This document shows positions 7,933 to 62,544 of a DNA stretch of 64,000 bases, one piece after another (the stretch's first letter is position 1; each line of letters opens with the position of its first letter). The stretch spans positions 8,083,957-8,147,956 of the forward strand of contig MU053881.1 of NCBI GenBank assembly GCA_013239625.1. Direction: 5' to 3'. The DNA comes from Lama guanicoe. Its lineage: Eukaryota. Under the pieces are notes generated by a model. That model had not been told where the DNA came from and did no database searches. It saw only the letters and a list, made by a program, of their open reading frames with translations. The position numbers and the translations under genes are program-made.

Positions 7933-8004
7933 AGATCTGAGCGAGAACCAGATCGTGGGCATCCCCAGGAAGGCGTTCCGAGGCATCGCCGACGTGAAGA
8001 ACCT
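7933..8004 (+). CDS. SLIT3: SLIT3 internal coding exon (probably exon 5), one 24-aa LRR unit of LRR domain 1
   Basis: Polypyrimidine tract tcttctcttcttgtttAG (AG at 7931-7932) and donor ct|GTAAGT at 8005. Length is exactly 72 nt. Translates (phase 2) to [24 protein letters not shown], matching recalled human SLIT3 [24 protein letters not shown]. Missed by the ORF track. Confidence 0.96.
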
Positions 8005-23528: not shown

Positions 23529-24295
23529 ACTGCCATCAAAAAGAATACAAATGACAACTGTTGGCAAGGATGTGGAGAAAAAGGAACCCTTGTACACAGT
23601 TGATGGGAACGTAACTTGGTGCAGCCACTGTGGAAAACAATATGGAAATTTCTCCAAAAAACTGAAAATAGAACTACCATAGGACCCAGCATTTCCACTC
23701 CTGGGTTTATATATCAAAACACACACACACAGGCACACAAACACAAATTTGAAAAAATACATACACCCCAGTGTTCACAGCAGGATTATTTACAATTGCC
23801 AAGGTACAGAAGCAACCTAAGTGTCCATCAGTAGATGAATAGATGAAGATGTGGTGTATATATATGCAGTGGAATATTACTCAGCTGTTAAAAAAACCAA
23901 AGTTTTGCTGTTTGCAGCAACATGCATGGACTTGAAGGGCATTATGCTAAGTGAAATAAGTCAGACAGAGCAAAACGAATACTGTATGATATCATGTACA
24001 TGTGGAATCTAAAAAATACAACAAACTAGTGAATGTAACAAAAAGGAAGCAGACTCACAGAGAACAAGCTAGTGGTTACCAGTTGGCGGGGGAGGGACAA
24101 TACAGACGTGGGGGGAAGTGGAAAGTACAAATTATTAGGTATAAAATAAGCTACAAGGATATATTTTTCAACATGGGGAATGTAGCCAATATTTTGTAGT
24201 AACTATAAATGGAAAGTAACCTTTAAAAATTGTATAAATGTTTTTAATATATTATAAATCAACTATGCTTCGATAAAGAAAGCAGTAACAAAAAA
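23529..24295 (+). mobile_element. 5'-truncated L1 (ORF2 end plus 3'UTR) flanked by a TSD
   Basis: tgttggcaaggatgtggagaaaaaggaaccc...ttggtgcagccactgtggaaaac...cattatgctaagtgaaataagtcagacagag...aaatcaactat; TSD tgcacccatttt at 23515-23526 and 24296-24307. Confidence 0.9.
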
Positions 24296-40036: not shown

Positions 40037-40046
40037 NNNNNNNNNN
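40037..40046. other. Assembly gap (10 N) inside a poly-T run
   Basis: Directly visible. Confidence 0.99.
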
Positions 40047-41230: not shown

Positions 41231-42829
41231 CTTCTTTCTACTACTTCATTTTTTCTCTTCTTTCTATGAGTTTCTTCTCCCCTGCAAATTGCATTCTTTC
41301 CACATAAACTTCTGTGTATTTAGAGCATCCTGTTTGGTTTCTGGTGCTCTCCTAAAGAAGAGGAATAGAAAATGCTTCACAAATCTAGCAAATCAATAGT
41401 ATTTTAATAGCCAGGACCTCTCTAAATGTCTGCACAAAAGCCGATGGGCCGCTTACTGCCGCCTCTTCTCGCTGCCCCGCGCTTCCCAATTTGATGATTT
41501 AGATACTTTTCTACTTGGGTGGATGGTGCCGTTTTTGCCGAATTCAGCACGTTCATCGAACAATTTCTTGGAGCCCAAAGCCAGCTCCACTACATTTCTG
41601 CTTGGTAAGGGTTGGTGGCCTTGACGTGGGGCAGGAGCTGTTGATTCATTGGCCCTTAAACTGATGATAAATCTGGAAGTTGGGCAGTAGAACTAGACTG
41701 CCTTCATAGAGCCTTTGCGGGGCATGGGCAGCCCAACACTTACAGGAAGTCTACAAAAATAGCGCTCCGTAAACTCACGTCAGGAGAGGCTCCGGAAGAA
41801 TGCGGGGTAGCAGGAACGCTGGGGTCCCGTGTGAGTCGGCGTCAGCAAGACCTCTGAACACCAGACACAGAACCCGTCAACCTGCAGAGTGCTTCTGCTT
41901 CTCGAGACACCCATGTCCTGCCTGTCCTTTCATTCTAAACGTCTAGTATGTTGCATCGTGAGCGTTTTTTGAAACAAGTCAAGCCCCCACGAGACCGCGG
42001 CAGAGCCCCTCTGCGGCGATGTACTCCACCACTCCGATTGTGCGAATTTCATTCACGCACCTTTATGCAATCTTACATCTATGTATTTTTTTCAATGATA
42101 ATAAAGATTTTAATCGTAATTCCACCTTCCTTCAGCAGGCTATAAAATGCTCCAAGAGGGCTACCAAAGGGAGCTGTGACACATCTTCTGCGGAGAGTTG
42201 TCTTAGAATAGATTAGCACAAGTTTCAAATGAAGATTCCAGCATCAGGAGAGCCTCCCACCTGAGACGGGCTGATTTTTGGCTGAGACAAAAGATAAAGG
42301 AGTCTCGGAAGGAGTACTTCTTTCGGCCAGTTCCCCCAAAGACTGTGTGGTGTGTTCTGCACAAAAAAATATAATAGTCTAGTAATAATAACCATTTTCT
42401 GTGTAACACCTTTTTTTTTAATTAAGCAAGTTATATATTTATAATAGGTGATATTTAAGTTGAAATGTGGTCACGGTAAATCTCCTGACCTGTACACATC
42501 AGGCACATTTTGATTTGAGATCATGCTGTCTACCTGTTATCCCTCAACTAAAATAACCCAGTCCCCAGCTAGAATGTATATTAGTTAAGGCATCTTTTAA
42601 AAAAATAAAAATAAAAAACTTGATCTTCATGCTCATAAGACGGAAAGGGAAATAAGTAGGGGGGAAAAAGTCCCAAAAGAGGTGCATTTAATTCTCCCCA
42701 ATTTAAATTTAAGTGGTACATCTTTAAGGCCATAACAATATTCCTTTTTTTTCCCCCCTCATCAGGAACACTTCCATCAATGAATTTCTTTAATGTTGAT
42801 GCTGGTTGGTGCAGTTTGAGAGAATCTGT

Positions 42830-43500
42830 ATTTAGTCAGAAAATGCTTCAGTAGAATGACCTACCAGATGGGCCCCATAACAAAGCACGGAGGCATCAAA
42901 CCACCACAGACATTTGGTGCTTAGAATAATAAAAAGACTATAAAATTAGATTAGTTGAGTCTAATTTGGAATTGGTATATTCCCCATGCACCCTCGCCGC
43001 TCCTGGGCAGATAAAGCCTTGAGATTTAGCACTGTGTCAGAGCAGAAGGCTGCAACTTCCAGTAAAAGGGAGCCAGGGAGCGGGAGAGAGGGGGGAAAAA
43101 AGCATTCTGGGAGGTCACGGAGGGCAGAGCAGTGACCTCCAATGATTTACAGGCCTTTAGCTTAATGAAATTGTTTCAGTGACATGACGGTAAGAGCTCG
43201 TAATGGATTGGATGCCCTAATGTAATGAAATTACTCCCTTCTGCCTAAAAAAAAAAATGCGCAATTAATATTTACTGAGACCTGACAGCCTTAGGAGCGC
43301 TCGTCTGTGTGGTTCCCCCAGACAGTCAGAGCGGAGAGGCGAGCAGCGTGGCAGACAGGCTGGCTCTGCGCGAGCTCCTGGCGGGGACGAGCAGAGCCGG
43401 CGGCGCGGGGCGGAGGGCCCGGCGCTCGGGGGACCGCGGCCGCCCGGCCCCTCGGCGCTGCCCCGCGCAGCCTTCATGCTCTCCCCTTGCTTTCCCACAG
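42830..43500 (+). promoter_or_regulatory. Candidate internal promoter/enhancer upstream of exon 6: homeodomain-site cluster followed by a CpG-rich segment
   Basis: Repeat-free. Contains TAATGAAATTA (43223-43233), TAATGAAATTG (43163-43173), TGATTTAC (43143-43150), TGACAG (43283-43288) and inverted AAATTAGA...TCTAATTT (42943-42967), then GC/CpG-dense sequence. Confidence 0.7.
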
Positions 43501-43630
43501 GCAGCTGGACAACAACCGCATCGGCTGCATTGAAGATGGAGCCTTCCGAGCGCTGCGCGACCTGGAGATCCTGTGAGTGCCTTTTGCGATCGCTGCCTTG
43601 TGTGCGTCTGTGCGAGTGTGTCCGGGTGAG
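43290..43630. other. Small intragenic CpG island spanning exon 6
   Basis: Very high GC with many CpGs (e.g. gccggcggcgcggggcggagggcccggcgctcgggggaccgcggccgcccggcc), unlike the rest of the window. Confidence 0.75.
43501..43572 (+). CDS. SLIT3: SLIT3 internal coding exon (probably exon 6), one 24-aa LRR unit
   Basis: Acceptor ctccccttgctttcccacAG ends at 43500 and donor ct|GTGAGT starts at 43573; 72 nt. Splices in frame to the previous exon (ct|g = Leu). Encodes [24 protein letters not shown], which fits SLIT3 better than SLIT1/2 as recalled. Confidence 0.96.
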
Positions 43631-46600
43631 GAGGGGAGAGGGGGAGTGTGTGTGCCGGGGGGTCTGTGTGGACACATTTCTGTGTCTTCTGCTGCAGAGC
43701 TATTGAAACTGGGAACTGGGGAGATCCCTCCGGCTCACCTTGGCCAAAGTGTTTGTGGGCAGCAAAATGTGATTTCTCACCTCCCGCAGGCTAATTAAGT
43801 CTCCATTGAGTCCTTTCTCCCCCGATGCTCCCGCGGTATTTGTTGCTGGGTGAAACAGATGGGCTGGAGTTAAGACCCCCAGCGCCTGCCAGAGCATTCA
43901 GGGAGGGTCTGAATGTGAGCTTACGGAGAGACGGGTTACAGGTCTGGGAGATGAGAAAGGGGCTGCACCAGGGGGTCGGCTGGAATCACCCAGAATCAGA
44001 AGGCTACTTTGGCACAGGACCAGGGGAATGCCAAGCAGCCTGGTAAAGTCCAGTCATCGCCGCTGTTCTGGGGATCTCATCTCAGGTTTAAACCCAAAGT
44101 TTAAGCAGTAACCTTAAAGTGACGGGGGTGTGGGGGAGGATGGGAGGTGAGGGCCGCCTTCCCAGAAGACCACCGTGTGTACCTTGTCTGGGAAAAAAAT
44201 GTGTAGCTGCCTTTCTGTGTTCTGGATTTTCACATGGGTCTAGCTAAGGAAACCTGATTTCCAGGGGGAAAGTCAGCTAGGAGTCATCCTGGGGTCATTC
44301 AAACTAAAATTGAATTGTGTAAGAAAACATTTTGACAGTTCTCCCCCAAAACTACACTCCCAGCTGTCCCTGATTTGGGGAAACCTGGAGAGGAAGGCAG
44401 TAAAGCCTGGCAGAACTTGCATTGGGAGATGTGAGGTCCAGTCCCTGCTTGGCCCCTGAAATAGCTGTGTGACCTTGGGCGAGTCTCTTCTATGCTTGGA
44501 GCCTCAGTTTTCTCATACGAAAAACGAAAGGGGTGGCTGCTATATCTTGGGGTGACTTCTCCTTTCCAAGTTCTGTAATTCCTTGCTTCTAAAAATAATT
44601 CTGATGGTACAGTTTGAGCCAGAATGATAACAGTAGGATGTGTTGAGCATCCCCCTGAAAAATAAAAAAATTACATAGTCACCAGGTTACATATCTCTGA
44701 CTTCCAGAAGAATGAATAAATGTCAAATAAATGAATGAATGAATATATTAAAATATCCCTTTATCCATAAAGGAAGTTCCTCCTTCCACCTTCCTTTTCA
44801 CCTGGCCCCGCAGACAGTAGCAACGGGTTGGAGACATCCTCTCCACGTTGTGTGAGAGGAAGGTGATTCCAAGAGGAATCACGGGAAATCAAAGGGGATG
44901 CTGATGCTGCAGGCTGCTGGAAATCGGATGAAAGCCGAGAGTTCCCGGTACAGAAAAGGCAGGACCCACAGCCAGAGAGGTCAGGTTGTCATTCCTAAGA
45001 CGGATGGTCTCACCTCACCCAAACTCTGACCCCGGAACCAGCAACAAATGCGTGTCTGCTAGGGAGAGGATGCCAGCCCCAGTTTAGTAACCCAGGACTT
45101 CTGTTATCAAGAGGCTGGAGCTGAGAAGGGGAGGCGCGATTTTTCCCTGCCTGCAAAAAAGCCTCTGTAAAAAGGGTTTGCCAGGAGCATATCACCTTCT
45201 TCTTGAGAAGGATGAGAAAATTCCCTGGGAAGAGACCGGGAAATAGAAGTCACCAGCTGCCACGAAACAGCTGTGACGACCTGACAGCCCACGTGTTAGA
45301 TCTGTCGACCAGGAGTGGTGTCATCTCGCCTCACCAGGAAGGCTGTCGGGGGGGAGAGGGGTGGGCGTACCATCAGACACACCTGGGTGTGGGATCCCAG
45401 ATGTGGTGGGACATTGGCCGGGCTAGTCTGCTTCTCTGAGTCTTAACTCTGATGCCTTACATACTACGTAGGTGGGGCTCTCTAAATGATATCCCCTTCA
45501 TATCCCTAACTTTCTCCCCACCATGCCCTCATCTCCATCAAACCCCTGTCCAGGACAGAATTGGACTCCCCTTTCTGATGTGTGCTATGACAATATGAAA
45601 ATATTTTTTATCCAGATACCCTAGGTCTCTCAAACTTGAAGCTTAAAAGCCTGTGATTAAAAAAAAAAACAATAGTCCTCATTCTCCATCATTGTAAAGA
45701 GCCCATAGGATCTGATTAGTTTATCTTCTCAATTCCAAACAAAGCTAGATCAATAGCTTTGTTTTAAAGACACTCTCGTTTGGCTTCACATGGCTAAGTA
45801 CTTAAAATTAATCATAATCAGTTATTCCATGGGTTTTTAATTTCCAGCAGAGGCACATAGCTTTGGAACCATCCATCTTAATGGAGAGCCATCCTGAAAT
45901 TGGCTGGAGCTGACATCTCCATCTAAAGAACCTCCCCGCCCCACCCCCAGACCTTCCAAATCTCATCTACACATTGACATGTTAAAAGACTTCTCTGTGA
46001 TCACAACTCAGGCACCATAGAGAAACTTGACAATGAAATAATAAGTAGGAACTAAGTGAGGGCATCATACAGTAACTTAGTAAATTCTTCAGAGAGACAG
46101 AGGCAGAGAGAGGAGTTCAAAACACTCTGTCCCCACAAAGGTCATCTTCAAGCATCTCACGCTTCTAAAGTCTGCAAAGCAAGAAGACAAAATCTAGTAT
46201 TTGGGGTGTGTTTTCTCTCTGACATAAGAAAGCGTGCAGTACAAGGCTCCTGATTACTTCATGAAAATTATCTCTGAAAATTAAGTGTATGGACAAAAAC
46301 TGCTAGTGGAACTATTTCACATGGGATCACCCTGATATTCCATTCTTTCTGTGGGTGGATATACCGTGAACTCCTTTCCATCGGGGCTGAGGTCGGCCGC
46401 ACCGGTCACATTGAATAGAACCTAGGAGGTGAGTCGGGGCGGGAAGCCCTGGCAGTGAGGCGTGAGGAACTGTACAAGGTTGGGAAAGACTGTGAAATGT
46501 GCCCACCGCAACCTCATTTTTAACTCAGGCCCCCTGGGGGGATGTCCAGCACAGGGTATGGTAGACAAAGGGAGAGAGCCACCACCCTCCCCTCTCCAGG

Positions 46601-49524
46601 CAGCCAGAAAAGGGAGGAAGGAGGAAAGCATAGTATGGGCGAAACTTGTCAAGGCTCCCGCACCACTGCGGAGGAGGAATCGTAAGGCAGGTGATGACAG
46701 CTGACCTTCACTGTGTAGGTGCTGGTACCCGACACGAAAAGCAGCGCCTTTACATCTGTTCTCTCTTTGCATCCTCACAACCCCTCCGGGAAACTCTTAC
46801 TGTCACCCTCCTTTTCCAGAGGAATTCCCATTTCAGAGAAACCAAGCAACGGCTTAACTAGCAAGCAGCAGAACCCGTGTGCTTAACCCTTCTCCCAAGC
46901 TGCCTTTCTGACCTGTGTTGCGAAGGCTCTCGTGGCGTTGGCTCCCCGGAAGCATGGCCAGCGTGTGCCGCAGGGGGTTGTGAACCGGCCCCGAGGGCTG
47001 GTTGAGGCCGTGCCTCGCAGTCCTGCCGAGGAGACTCCCAGAGCCTCCCACAGCTCGTGAGATTGTCATTCCCTTTACTCAGCAACGGGTCCCCACAAAG
47101 TGGAAGGTAAATGAGACTCGTAGGGGAGAGAAAAGTCATCCTGCTCGTCCACTGACATACGTTCTAGTCCCAGAGGTGACTTATTCTCACTTCTGGATGT
47201 CGCCGATTGACTTTGGCACCCAGCAGTTTGGGGGCTCCGGTCCCCAGACCTCCCTAAAATACAGCCCCAGATTTCTGTAGGGAGCTTGGGCTTCTTAATT
47301 GAGGGACTCTGGCTTTCTGTGACTCAGCCACCCTTCTGTTACCCAAATCATGGACCCTTCATTTCCACTCTTTCTGTATGTTTGGTGGTTCATGTCCAAG
47401 GTTTTACCGGAGTAAGGCGTGTTGAAGCCGCAGTCAGATATGCCAAGACTGCACTTCCCTGGCTGGTCCGGAACTGTGTGTGGAGACTCTCTGAGCCCTG
47501 GGGTTCTAGCCCCTGCCAGCTAGATTGAGGACTGCCAGGCATTGCACCAATGTTACCAGGCTCCTCCCGGCCCAACCTGCCATCCTGGGCCAGAAAAAGT
47601 AGTTAATGGGAAAAGAATTTTAAGGGTATGGACGAGTGAAACAAAAACAAGAAAACCTAGTTAGTAAAATACTTAATTTTTGTTTTCAATAGTATTGCAG
47701 GAGAAGAGAAAAGATTCTCAGACATTGTCTTCTGAGCGTATCAGTTCAGTAGATACGCTGCCCAAAATGCCAAACCAAAGATGTCAGGAACACATCCTGA
47801 AAATGCTCTCAGTGCGTGGTCTGCCCTTGATAAATCACAAGTACTGGCCAGATTCCCCGTCGATCCGACAGGTCTGCAGATAACCACTGTGTGCTGTTTT
47901 GAAAGCCTCGCTCTCATTCATGTCACTTACCAATTTTGGAAGTTTCGTGACATTATTATCAGCAGGCTATGGGAGGACCTTAGATGTCTCCAGGATGACC
48001 TCTTATTGTTGAGATAAGGCATGAAAAGGTTGAGAACGGGGTCAGGACTAGAGGGAGGCCTATGCCTCCTAATATTTTGTGTCCAGGGCACCCCACTTCC
48101 CTTGCTCTCATCCTGGCCCTAGCTAGGAGACTTGACAAGGGCAACAAGCACAAAGGAAGAGAACCTTGGTCTCTGGACTCCGATCCCATGTTCTTTGCCT
48201 GCAGTGGGCATCTCCGTGCAACGAGGCTGTTCAAAAGCCATCCCCTGGTAAGGCTGGGGACCCTAATCACAGTTGTCCTTTCAAAACCCCTCATTAAATG
48301 CTTTATATCATTTAGGAGATTGGGAGAGGGCAAACTGTAGTCCACGACAGAAAGAAAGCGTGATTCTGCTTTCAGCTTTTTTGAAACCAGCGGTTGCAAA
48401 CTAGACTACTGACTGCAGATGAGGTGTTTTTTTTTTTAATTCAGTTGAGTGTTTTTTACAATTTGAAATTAGTATTTCATACTGAAAATGTATGTTATTT
48501 TTTTTAAAAGTCCAGAATTCCAGCCTTGGACTTGGGCAAACCAGAAGCATTGGCAACCCTGGGCTGCATTTCTGCATTGCAGTGGTCATTTGTGGCTGAG
48601 AAGCACATACCCCGCCTGAGACGGGGTATGTAGACTCCACTTGCCCACTGACCTCCACCCGCTTCAGTGACCTGCCAGCCCGGGCAGCCCCTGCTTTAAT
48701 CCACTTTAGAAGCAAGGGCACACTCCGCCGGGGACAGTAAAGCTTTAAATGAGCAGGTGCTCTGGCAGATCATGCGCTAAAGCCCGGCGCTTACCGGAGT
48801 TGTTGAATAGACATGCAGAGACAGAGGTAGGTGACGTGGAGTCCAAGATTCCCAGACTGAACAAGGACACCTCCGAAGCCATCAGGAACGTCGCATGCCT
48901 CATCTTCCAGGACGTTCTTCTCAAGAGTTGAACGTGCCTCGAGATTCCCTTCGATTTTAAAACAGTGTAACTGGGTTTATGCATACGATAAGAAATAAGA
49001 GATGAATATGCCCCCCCATTTCTTCCTCCCTAGACCCCAGCATCAGCCTGTGTAATGAGCAACCTCTCAGTCCTCCTTTAGAGAAAAGAAAGTCAAGCGT
49101 TAAAGCAGTGGTGGGAATTAACCAGACTTTGAGCACAGTCCTCATTCAGCCACGTCCGGTCAGGCATGACATGGCCTGACTCCGAGCCCTACTTGTAGGT
49201 ACAGAAAGAGAATGTAGAAGAAAGTCATCTTCTGGTATAACAAGAAGGCAGGGAAAAAGAAATTTGATGACCGTCCTGATACCCAGATTAGGGTGGTTGT
49301 CCCGGCTGAGGGGTGCTGGGCACTGGGTGTTGGGACATTTATAGACACGGTTGGTCCAGAGCTTAATGCAAGTGGTGGCGTTTCCTCCACTTCAAATGAG
49401 TGTCCTCTGGGTGTGGATCCGCATGTTCTGATTAACAAATAATAATGTATTGATACATTATATAATGCAATGATATCATACCAATTATCATCATAGTTAT
49501 TATAAATATGATAATTACTCTCAT

Positions 49525-49730
49525 AGCCTCCATGTTTTAGCATCTGCTATCTTCCAGGCACTGTGATAAAACATTAGAATGTCGCATCTTACGTAGCCGC
49601 TCTCCCCTTACAAGGTGGATCTTGGTAACCAGCTCTCACCAGTGAGGAAGCTGAGGCTTAGAGAAGTTGAGTAACTTCCCCAGGGTGACACTGACAAGCA
49701 GAGGGGAATTACTCTTCCAGTATCAAATCC
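49525..49730 (-). mobile_element. MIR fragment
   Basis: tgaggaagctgaggcttagagaagttgagtaacttccccagggtgacac. Confidence 0.7.
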
Positions 49731-50314
49731 AGCTCCGCCTGGGGTTTGAGCCCCCGCACTTAACTGCCCTGCTACAAAAAATTAAAGTTAAAAAATACGT
49801 ACCAGAGCAGACATACCAAAACACAAGACAGTTGCATGCATTGGTGAGATTAATAGCTGTGGAAAATGCCCAGAATAATTCAGAAAGCACAGGCTTTTTT
49901 GTTTGTTTGTTTGAGAAGTTGACCCCCAGGACGCTCAGATCTAAACCTGTGACGTCAGCTTAATCAGCCTCACGTCCCATTCTGTGAAACTGCCCCGGAC
50001 AATGGAGGCTGAGCTGCTCGGGGTGATTACTGTCCTCCCATCAGACTGGTGGCCAAACCAGCTTCACCAAATTGGGTGGTTTGGGGTTCATTTTCTTGAA
50101 AAAGAGGAGTAATACCACCCTCTCGGCTAGTTGTGTGGACTGAAGGAGATCCCTCAGGCGTGTGGCTGGCAAATAGCAGATGTCCAATCAGGATGCTTAT
50201 AAACATCAAAGTTGAAAAATATTCCTGAACTGCACACTGCCTGAGCTCTAGAACCTTGCACAAGTCTGGCCCATAGTAGGTGGTCAGTTAAAGTTCACAT
50301 TGAGTTGAAATTTG

Positions 50315-51375: not shown

Positions 51376-51704
51376 TCGTGCTGCCTTCGTGGATAGTCCA
51401 GATTTGGAGCTGGGTGGGAGTACCGCATGTGGACAGGGCATGCCCTCTGCAGATCTCCAATAGCTCCCACCTGCTTCCCTGCCTCCCGTGTCCAGACCGC
51501 TGGAGGCTTTTCACATCCATGAATAAGCGCAGTGTTTAAACAGTGTATTTTCTGGCTCTAAATACTTGGAAATGCCTGCCACGTCCCTCACCCTCCACTC
51601 TGCTCTTTCTCTCTTTATTTCAACATCTGGATCTTATATCCCTGCAAAGACCCGTTTTCACTGAAACCCGGGAGTATGGTTATTAAAACCGTCTTCCACC
51701 AAAG
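51376..51704 (+). repeat. Copy A of a ~330-bp local direct duplication
   Basis: Aligns by eye to 52895-53226 at roughly 85-90% identity. Confidence 0.95.
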
Positions 51705-52717: not shown

Positions 52718-52922
52718 AGCAGCACCGTCCAACAGGACTTTCTGTGATGAAGGAAATATTTCACATGTGAGCTGTCCAATGTGATAGCCACTAGCGACGT
52801 GTGACTCTTGAGCACTTGAAATGTGCAACTGAGAAACGCAATGTTTAACTTTATTTAATTTTCATTGATGTAAATTTAAATCGCCCCGTTCAGCTCGTGG
52901 CTGCCTTACTGGGTGGTGCAGG
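52718..52922. mobile_element. MER3 (hAT-Charlie)
   Basis: gtccaacaggactttctgtgatgaaggaaatatt...gctgtccaatgtgatagccactagc...ttgagcacttgaaatgtg...ttatttaattttcattgatgtaaatttaaat. Confidence 0.85.
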
Positions 52923-53226
52923 TTTGGAGCTGAGTGGAAGTACCGCATGTGGACAGGGCATGCCCTCTGCAGATCTCCGATAGCTCCCACCTGCCTTCCT
53001 GCCTGCCCTGCTCCAATCCTGTGGAGCCTTTTCACATCCATGAATAAGCACAGTGTTTGAACAGTGTGTTTTCTGAAGCTAAATACTTCGAAATACCTGC
53101 CACATCCCTCACCCTCCACTCTGCCCTTTCTCTCTCTTAGTTACAACATCTGGATCTTATACCCTCCAAAGACCCTTTTTCACTGAAACCCAGGAGTATG
53201 AATATTAAAACCGTCTCCCACCAAAG
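52895..53226 (+). repeat. Copy B of the ~330-bp local direct duplication
   Basis: Shares an identical 40-nt run, agtaccgcatgtggacagggcatgccctctgcagatctcc, with copy A. Confidence 0.95.
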
Positions 53227-59741: not shown

Positions 59742-60200
59742 TTTTATTTTATTTATTTTTTTTTACATTTTTATTGATTCATAATCATTTTACAGTGTTG
59801 TGTCAAATTCCCGTGTTCAGTACAATTTTTCAGTCATACATGGACATATACACACTCATTGTCACATTTTTTTCTCTGTGATTTATCATAACATTTTGTG
59901 TATATTTCCCTGTGCTATACAGTGTAATCTTGTTTATCTGTTCTACAATTTTGAAATCCCAGTCTATCCCTTCCCACCCTCTACCCCGCCCCCCCCCCGG
60001 TAACCACAAGTCTGTATTCTCTGTCCATGAGTCTATTTCTGTCCTGCATTTATGCTTTGTTTTTGTTTGTTTGTTTGTTTTTGTTTTTTAGATTCCACAT
60101 ATGAGCGATCTCATATGGTATTTTTCTTTCTCTTTCTGGCTTACTTCACTTAGAATGACATTCTCTAGGAGCATCCATGTTGCTGCAAATGGCATTATGC
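59742..60200 (-). mobile_element. Relatively young 5'-truncated L1 3' end
   Basis: Poly-T tail, then ttccctgtgctatacagt...ggtaaccacaagtctgtattct...tttagattccacatatgagcgatctcatatggtattt...catccatgttgctgcaaatggcattat. Confidence 0.88.
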
Positions 60201-61345: not shown

Positions 61346-62544
61346 GGGAGGCGTCCTTTCTGGAGTCAGGCTTGTTTGGATTCAAGCCCTGGGACCATCA
61401 TTTGCTTCACCCACGAAATGGAGGTGATGGAAAGGTGCCTGCCTCATTGGATGGTTGTAGGAATTGAATGTGATGGTGCAAGTGGAACCCTCCACCCAGT
61501 GCCTGCTTGGCGTACAATACACTCTCAGTCAATGTTGGCAATTATTAGTAGCATCTCATTTAATCGCCGTATCACTCTGTGAGATCGGTGCTGCTGTTTC
61601 CCCCGTGTTACATAGGAGGAAACCTAATAAGATTACTCCTGGTTGCATGGGCTGTAAGTGGCAGAGGCGGAATCTAAACCAGGTCTTTGCCTTTGAGGCC
61701 ATGAGCACCCGCTCTGCCCCACTGCATGGGGGTTAAGACAGAGACAGCCCCCTCGAATGCCAGCTCTATCTGGTTCTTGTGCGAACCAGATAGACCACAG
61801 TGCTCCCTGCATGGGCAGAAGCCACCAAGACTGGAAATCAAATCAATCTGTGTTTATTAAGGAAACAGAAACTGTAGCTGCCACGGAGATCGGCGTCCAA
61901 GAGATTACCAACCCTCTGACGTCCCTGGGCTGGCCAGCCCCACACAGCAGATCCTGAGAGTCTGAATACTGTGTTTAGCCATTTTGGTTCTGGAATAATT
62001 GCTATTATCGTAAATGTTTTATAGCCCTCATTACGGCTCACATTTAAATATCAGTGTAGTAATACATTAATAAGTCATCGCTGCCGGACTATTGCCGGAT
62101 ACAGTTACAATCCAAGCCCTGCACTGTATGTTCAGCTAAATTAGGGCTGGCTGTGAACTCAACCTGACGCTGAGTGGCTGGGCGTGTTTGGAAGACAGCC
62201 TCTTTTCTTCAGAGGCTTCTTGCTCTTTGCCTTTGAGAGATAAGGGGGACGCTTAAATTTTTGTGTGGTGGTGGTGAGTCAACAGCCCTAACTAACTAGG
62301 TACCCCCGAGTGTGGCGCTTGGAACTCTGGGGCGGATGGACGAGGAACCGAAGGCAGCGTTTCTGCCCTGAAGGCATTCCTAATCCACGGAGAGTGCGGT
62401 GGGGTGGGGTGGGCTGGTCCTCACTCCCAGGAAGCTCCCTGCCAAGGCAGGAGAGCCTGGTCTGATGGGAGTGACAGATTGTTCCTCTCTGTCTGATGAG
62501 CTATTCTGAACACTTCCTGGGTAGATGGAGATAGGATGGGTTCA

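What the first reader, a model, noticed from the sequence alone, without database searches (positions are those of the whole stretch)
42830..43300. Homeodomain-site cluster upstream of exon 6: likely ortholog of the motor-neuron internal promoter driving pri-miR-218-2
Seen: a repeat-free block with a perfect P3 palindrome TAAT-GAA-ATTA (43223-43233, the paired-type/Phox2 dimer site), a near copy TAATGAAATTG 60 bp upstream, TAATGTAATG, a Pbx-Hox-type TGATTTAC and a Meis-type TGACAG, running into a CpG island. Established (from memory): miR-218-2 lies in a downstream SLIT3 intron, and in mouse motor neurons it is transcribed from an alternative promoter just upstream of Slit3 exon 6 bound by Isl1/Lhx3 and Phox2a. 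Inference: this is that element. It is not novel biology, but it is probably unannotated in this genome.
Basis: partly seen in the sequence, partly recalled or inferred. Interest (0 to 1): 0.7.

Follow-up and report, generated by a model that had tools for sequence, protein, structure and literature searches.

The report
SLIT3 internal promoter for miR-218-2
This is a conserved stretch of transcription-factor sites just before the sixth exon of the mammalian SLIT3 gene, most likely this animal's copy of the already published switch that turns on microRNA-218 in motor neurons, so it is real but not new biology.

Summary
All five motifs sit where stated. The doubled 10-mer TAATGAAATT beats chance (0 of 5000 shuffles); the Meis-type TGACAG does not (825 of 5000). 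The next exon (43501-43572) encodes SLIT3 residues 163-186, the sixth exon by isoform junctions. One metagenome contig from another, unnamed species aligns at 364 of 399 columns, with perfect runs of 78 and 64 bp outside the search pattern. The window's strongest CpG island adjoins. Two RefSeq SLIT3 isoforms start at Met204, which fits an internal start but does not prove one in this intron. A motor-neuron-specific miR-218-2 promoter in Slit3 is stated in print, but its position before exon 6 is recalled: the primary papers were not held. No start site, factor binding or miR-218 hairpin was shown here. The P3 site does not single out Phox2. Verdict: conserved regulatory element, probably (0.8) the orthologue of the known promoter. 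Already known; low interest.

The parts
7933..8004 (+). SLIT3 exon 5 (72 nt, AG/GT ends), residues 139-162
   Evidence: 23 of 24 residues match shrew, two whale and one bat SLIT3
42899..42976 (.).
   Evidence: a run this long in 219 of 100000 permutations
42939..42945 (+). TATA-like word TATAAAA (fails the stricter TATAWAWR; use as a TATA box not shown)
   Evidence: identical in L001
42943..42967 (.). Homeodomain array: AAATTAGATTA (one mismatch from P3) and the inverted pair AAATTAGA / TCTAATTT, 9 bp apart
   Evidence: identical in L001
43098..43247 (.). Downstream conserved block: 145 of 150 bases identical to L001; perfect runs 43102-43127, 43130-43193 and 43201-43246 (the last holds the search pattern)
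43143..43150 (+). TGATTTAC, Pbx-Hox-type word (label recalled)
   Evidence: identical in L001; 174 of 5000 shuffles
43163..43173 (+). TAATGAAATTG, near-P3 site
   Evidence: identical in L001, outside the search pattern
43187..43195 (+). Donor-like ACG|GTAAGA; possible end of an alternative first exon; weakly supported
   Evidence: 35 such words on the + strand of the window; +5 G is A in L001
43201..43227 (+). TAATG words: TAATGGATTG and CTAATGTAATG (Isl1-type half-sites; label recalled)
   Evidence: 4 TAATG/CATTA within 75 bp, the window's maximum; mostly matched in L001 by construction
43223..43233 (.). TAATGAAATTA, perfect TAAT-N3-ATTA (P3) site
   Evidence: P3 definition and Phox2 binding from PMC13530268 passages; matched in L001 by construction
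43283..43288 (+). TGACAG, Meis-type word; at chance level, conservation untested
   Evidence: L001 ends before it
43173..43746 (.). CpG island spanning exon 6; two GC boxes (43408, 43440)
43501..43572 (+). SLIT3 exon 6 (72 nt, AG/GT ends, one leucine-rich repeat), residues 163-186

Best explanation
A bipartite, conserved homeodomain-binding element at the 3' end of SLIT3 intron 5 that, with the adjoining CpG island, works as an internal promoter. In postmitotic motor neurons the Isl1-Lhx3 complex (spinal) or Isl1 with Phox2a/b (cranial) binds the TAAT arrays at 42943-42967 and 43163-43233 and starts RNA polymerase II just before exon 6. The RNA skips exons 1-5 and runs on to the downstream intron that holds pre-miR-218-2. 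Because it lacks the signal-peptide exon and its first in-frame Met is residue 204, it yields miR-218 without yielding secreted SLIT3. Shown here: gene, exon, motifs, CpG island, conservation in one other species. From papers read: miR-218-2 lies in a later SLIT3 intron, is an Isl1-Lhx3 target and has a motor-neuron-specific promoter in Slit3. Inferred or recalled: that this element is that promoter, the start site, the bound factors and the cell type.
For: SLIT3 identity: best hits are SLIT3; both window exons match 23 of 24 residues of shrew and whale SLIT3, against 19-20 of 24 for eel SLIT2 and 17-19 for fish and caecilian SLIT1. Isoform junctions at residues 67, 91, 115, 139 and 163 make this the sixth exon if residues 1-66 are one exon (that last point recalled). 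Conservation: L001 matches 77 of 77 and 145 of 150 bases in the two blocks, against 61 of 76 and 77 of 121 in the linkers; outside the search pattern, runs of 78 and 64 together arose in 0 of 100000 permutations. Strongest CpG island of the window adjoins. 2 of 59 listed cluster members (Damaraland mole-rat and pig-tailed macaque RefSeq isoform X3, 1320 aa) begin at Met204, as an internal start predicts. [quoted passage not shown]
Against: No text read places the published promoter before exon 6 (0 papers; primary papers not held). No start-site, RNA or binding data for this element. miR-218 is not in the window (0 Rfam matches) and no genome is held, so its presence downstream in this animal is untested. 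Conservation rests on a single contig of unknown species, found with a pattern that forced 28 bases to match, with no neutral flank for comparison. A recalled tandem Isl1-Lhx3 consensus has 0 matches with up to 2 mismatches in 42830-43500. The TATA-like word fails the stricter consensus. Met204 isoforms fit a start in any of introns 2-6; 4 of the 59 listed members begin at other internal exons, so 5'-shortened models are common at this gene; the 7 of 59 models that run from intron 5 into exon 6 mostly lack a start Met and look like gap-filling. No mammalian SLIT1 or SLIT2 was among the named entries of the 120 hits listed.
Confidence: 0.8

Rival explanations
1. A conserved homeodomain enhancer without its own start site: it acts on the main SLIT3 promoter or on a miR-218-2 start elsewhere (for example near the second CpG-rich block at 41406-42084), in motor neurons or in other cells that use paired-like, LIM or Hox factors.
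For: P3 sites are bound by many paired-like proteins; the Slit2 paralogue's intronic element was described as an enhancer; fish mir-218 elements are called enhancers; no strict TATA box; a second CpG-rich block lies 0.8-1.5 kb upstream.
Against: The element abuts the only strict CpG island of the window; Met204 isoforms exist in 2 species; a promoter in the Slit3 locus is stated in print.
Confidence: 0.14
2. An RNA-level element: a non-coding cassette exon ending at the donor-like site 43190, or a conserved structure or splicing control region for exon 6.
For: Donor-like ACG|GTAAGA inside a conserved run; the + strand of 42890-42985 folds at z -2.11 (3 of 200 shuffles).
Against: The other 3 of 4 folds are unremarkable (z -0.14 to -0.57); the main stem is invariant in L001, so no covariation, and is also what an inverted pair of DNA sites gives; the donor loses its +5 G in L001 and such words occur 35 times on the + strand; 0 Rfam matches.
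Confidence: 0.04
3. Chance AT-rich words in neutral intron DNA.
For: Motifs were picked after the fact; other places in the window hold as many or more TAAT words; TGACAG is at chance level.
Against: Perfect runs of 78 and 64 bp between linkers at about 80-84% identity with gaps.
Confidence: 0.02

Closest known systems
Mouse motor-neuron-specific miR-218-2 promoter in Slit3 (Amin et al. 2015; paper not seen, existence read second-hand in bioRxiv 10.1101/2025.07.22.666120)
   Same: Same gene; internal position before exon 6 (position of the published element recalled); homeodomain sites; conserved.
   Different: Other species; no sequence comparison with the published fragment was possible; activity not measured here.
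Isl1-Lhx3/4-bound Slit2 intronic enhancer (PMC5098159, passages)
   Same: Intronic, conserved, AT-rich sites, near the sixth exon of a Slit gene that hosts miR-218.
   Different: Paralogous gene; described as in the 6th intron and as an enhancer of Slit2; sequences not compared.
ChAT hexamer response element (PMC3998908, passages)
   Same: TAAT-N3-ATTA core; 2 mismatches in 11 to the sites at 43223 and 42943; its enhancer is bound by Isl1-Lhx3 and by Isl1 with Phox2a.
   Different: Different spacer bases; an enhancer of a protein gene; 19 such 2-mismatch matches occur in the window, so the likeness alone is weak.
Paired-like P3 dimer site (PMC13530268, passages)
   Same: 43223-43233 fits TAAT-NNN-ATTA exactly.
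   Different: The spacer GAA is neither tested spacer (TAG, CCG); the site does not name which protein binds.

Membership tests
Orthologue of the motor-neuron pri-miR-218-2 promoter | Host gene is SLIT3 | tested here: met
   23 of 24 residues in both exons to mammalian SLIT3; paralogue comparison limited to fish and amphibian sequences
Orthologue of the motor-neuron pri-miR-218-2 promoter | Lies just upstream of exon 6 (criterion recalled) | tested here: met
   element ends about 200-270 bp before the exon for residues 163-186; isoform junctions give the exon count
Orthologue of the motor-neuron pri-miR-218-2 promoter | Conserved non-coding sequence across species | tested here: met
   one contig of an unnamed species only
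Orthologue of the motor-neuron pri-miR-218-2 promoter | Sequence match to the published mouse or human fragment | not testable with these tools
   primary papers not held; no named mammalian genome to search
Orthologue of the motor-neuron pri-miR-218-2 promoter | miR-218-2 hairpin downstream on the same strand | not testable with these tools
   outside the window; no genome held
Orthologue of the motor-neuron pri-miR-218-2 promoter | Transcription starts here, in motor neurons | tested here: inconclusive
   only indirect: CpG island, Met204 isoforms in 2 of 59 listed members; no RNA laid on the element
Isl1-Lhx3 hexamer response element | Match to the HxRE-long or HxRE-short matrix | tested here: inconclusive
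   no matrix available; recalled tandem consensus has 0 matches at up to 2 mismatches, ChAT core matches at 2 mismatches
Isl1-Lhx3 hexamer response element | Bound and activated by Isl1 plus Lhx3 | not testable with these tools
   needs ChIP or reporter data
Paired-like P3 site | TAAT-NNN-ATTA | tested here: met
   43223-43233; definition
Paired-like P3 site | Cooperative binding by Phox2a/b | not testable with these tools
   needs EMSA or ChIP
Known structured RNA family | Rfam match at gathering score | tested here: not met
   0 matches to 4227 families in the window

The most novel reading that the evidence does not exclude
The 78-bp upstream block is the core promoter, the homeodomain cluster lies inside and just after a non-coding first exon that splices from 43190 to exon 6, and some of these RNAs run to the end of SLIT3 and are translated from Met204 into a 1320-residue SLIT3 without signal peptide, an intracellular form made alongside miR-218.
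Probability: 0.07. Interest if true: 0.55.

Novelty: already known. Interest (0 to 1): 0.2.

Why it matters
If the assignment holds, it annotates in one more mammal the switch for a microRNA whose loss kills mice at birth with neuromuscular failure (review passage). The small gain is a base-level map: two separate invariant blocks, which narrows where to mutate and where to look for human regulatory variants, and could shorten a motor-neuron reporter. It would not surprise a specialist.

Tried and rejected
Rfam scan of the window: 0 matches. PDB sequence search with the exon: 35 generic leucine-rich-repeat chains, no gene assignment. Own-genome search for mir-218: no genome held. Search of L001's record for flanking DNA as a neutral control: not held. 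Sequencing-run index: 22 of 24 listed runs hold part of 42700-43700, 2 hold half of the words or more; none was laid on the window, so which part they share, and any transcript form, stay open and they are not used as evidence. Earlier scan findings: nothing by place or words. Coding extension of exon 6 as in bear, dingo and donkey models: rejected, because the dingo and black bear leaders switch frame against the window near 43340, the window frame has a stop further up, and no ATG in 42830-43500 opens a stop-free frame into exon 6. TGACAG as support: rejected. RNA structure: 1 of 4 folds at z -2.1, no covariation. Recalled tandem Isl1-Lhx3 consensus, the Acly core and strict TATA: no match in the element. 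Ten paper searches gave no listing or passage that places the promoter before exon 6; most listed papers were seen as listings only. PMC6742670 and PMC11335214 passages gave nothing relevant.

Full report
Observation. The perfect TAAT-N3-ATTA form occurs twice in the 64 kb window. In 5000 dinucleotide shuffles of 42830-43300 a perfect P3 arose in 61, two P3 or near-P3 sites in 5, the 10-mer TAATGAAATT twice in 0, TGATTTAY in 174 and TGACAG in 825. These motifs were chosen after seeing the sequence, so the figures flatter them. Among 135 real tiles of the same length, 1 reaches two P3-type sites and 31 hold TGACAG. The repeated P3-type site is therefore unusual; the Meis-type word is not. The CpG island is real: 43173-43746, GC 0.61, obs/exp 0.78, with the window's densest CpG stretch; of 33 segments that pass a lenient test it is the only one that passes a strict, recalled one. 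No tandem repeat overlaps the block and it has no match better than E 0.30 in the flanking window; no repeat library was on hand.

Gene and exon. Two 72-nt exons with AG/GT ends, each one leucine-rich repeat, lie on the + strand at 7933-8004 and 43501-43572. A protein search with the second (plus 16 intron-side codons) gave 265 hits among 284 candidates, 120 listed, led by SLIT3 entries. Both exons match 23 of 24 residues of shrew, gray whale and minke whale SLIT3, at residues 139-162 and 163-186, against 19-20 of 24 for eel SLIT2 and 17-19 for fish and caecilian SLIT1. One shad entry named 'slit homolog 2-like' scores 21 of 24 but carries the fish SLIT3 peptide; no named mammalian SLIT1 or SLIT2 was listed. 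Database isoforms join or skip at residues 67, 91, 115, 139 and 163, which makes 43501-43572 the sixth exon if residues 1-66 form one exon (recalled). The finding thus lies at the 3' end of a 35.5-kb intron 5. No miR-218 hairpin is in the window (0 Rfam matches), as expected for a later intron, and no genome is held to look further.

Conservation. One scan of 241 million metagenome records with a 28-base pattern from 43201-43233 gave one contig, L001, of unnamed species. It aligns to about 42824-43250 with 364 of 399 columns identical. Identity is uneven: 77 of 77 at 42900-42976 and 145 of 150 at 43098-43247, but 61 of 76 and 77 of 121 (29 bases gapped) in the linkers. Leaving out the pattern, 352 columns hold 37 difference events; a run of 78 arose in 219 of 100000 permutations, runs of 78 and 64 together in 0. 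TGATTTAC, TAATGAAATTG and the whole upstream array are identical although not selected for. Limits: one species, distance unknown, no neutral flank, and L001 ends before TGACAG and the core of the CpG island.

The longest invariant run, 42899-42976, holds TATAAAA (42939), AAATTAGATTA (42943-42953, one mismatch from P3) and an inverted pair AAATTAGA / TCTAATTT. With a recalled Phox2-like consensus at one mismatch, 2 of the 6 matches in the window fall in the element, one in each block. The element is therefore bipartite. A donor-like ACG|GTAAGA lies at 43190, but such words occur 35 times on the + strand and it loses its +5 G in L001.

Who binds. TAAT-NNN-ATTA is the cooperative site of paired-like proteins, PHOX2B strongly so, and is present in over 75% of Phox2a peaks (PMC13530268, passages). 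The same core lies in the functional Isl1-Lhx3 element of the ChAT enhancer, which Isl1 with Phox2a also binds (PMC3998908, passages). Isl1-Lhx3 motifs are described with a 3-bp gap between AT-rich cores (PMC12501316, passages) and as long and short forms containing TAAT (PMC5394944, passages); the matrices were not available. A recalled tandem consensus has no match at up to 2 mismatches in the element. Sequence alone fits both complexes and proves neither.

Is it a promoter. Indirect signs: the adjoining CpG island; and 2 of 59 listed cluster members (mole-rat and macaque RefSeq isoform X3, 1320 aa) begin at Met204, the first Met after residue 79 (the largest cluster has 336 members, 40 read, 15 listed). 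That fits a start in intron 5 but equally in introns 2-4 or 6, and 4 other listed models begin at other internal exons. Seven models from two bears, dingo and donkey run from intron-5 sequence into exon 6; six lack a start Met, and the dingo and black bear leaders switch frame against the window, so I read them as gap-filling rather than evidence of a protein. The TATA-like word fails the stricter consensus.

Literature. [quoted passage not shown] Not seen: Amin 2015 and 2021 and Thiebes 2015 and Punnamoottil 2015 (not requested). That the mouse promoter lies just upstream of exon 6 and carries Isl1, Lhx3 and Phox2a peaks agrees with my recall but was confirmed by no text; the search that included 'exon 6' returned 0 papers. 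No supplements were read; those of the primary papers would settle the coordinates.

Mechanism and verdict. Most likely (0.8) the element is an internal promoter: motor-neuron homeodomain complexes bind the two arrays, transcription starts just before exon 6, and the RNA delivers pre-miR-218-2 while lacking the signal-peptide exon, so miR-218 is made without secreted SLIT3. Gene, exon, motifs, island and conservation are shown; binding, start site, cell type and identity with the published fragment are inferred. Rivals are an enhancer without its own start (0.14), an RNA-level element (0.04; one of four folds at z -2.1 without covariation) and chance (0.02). The biology is already known; the increment is an annotation and a finer map. 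Interest 0.2.

Noticed in passing
window 41406-42084: Second CpG-rich block (679 bp, GC 0.52, obs/exp 0.75) about 0.8-1.5 kb upstream of the element. Its first part (41424-41609) matches the leader of three donkey SLIT3 models at 70-73% residue identity, so orthologous DNA is kept in another mammal.
   Followed up: partly
window 40037-40046: Run of 10 N, an assembly gap about 2.8 kb upstream of the element; the true intron length may differ.
   Followed up: no
window 43249-43270: After a 12-base A run comes TGCGCAATTAAT, a further AT-rich homeodomain-like word next to a C/EBP-like word (labels recalled); beyond the end of L001, so conservation untested.
   Followed up: no
window 49325-49890: Highest TAAT/ATTA density of the window (9 in 120 bp, 15 in 470 bp) in AT-rich DNA of intron 6; not examined.
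   Followed up: no
window 61625-61635: The only other perfect TAAT-N3-ATTA site in the window, in intron 6, in a TAAT-rich stretch.
   Followed up: no
window 51376-51704 and 52895-53226; 23911-24026 and 60073-60189: The only four stretches with a similar copy elsewhere in the window (about 330 and 116 bp), probably interspersed repeats; the window as a whole shows little internal repetition.
   Followed up: no
whole window: Background CpG obs/exp is 0.39, high for mammalian intron DNA by my recall, which makes lenient CpG-island calls common here.
   Followed up: no
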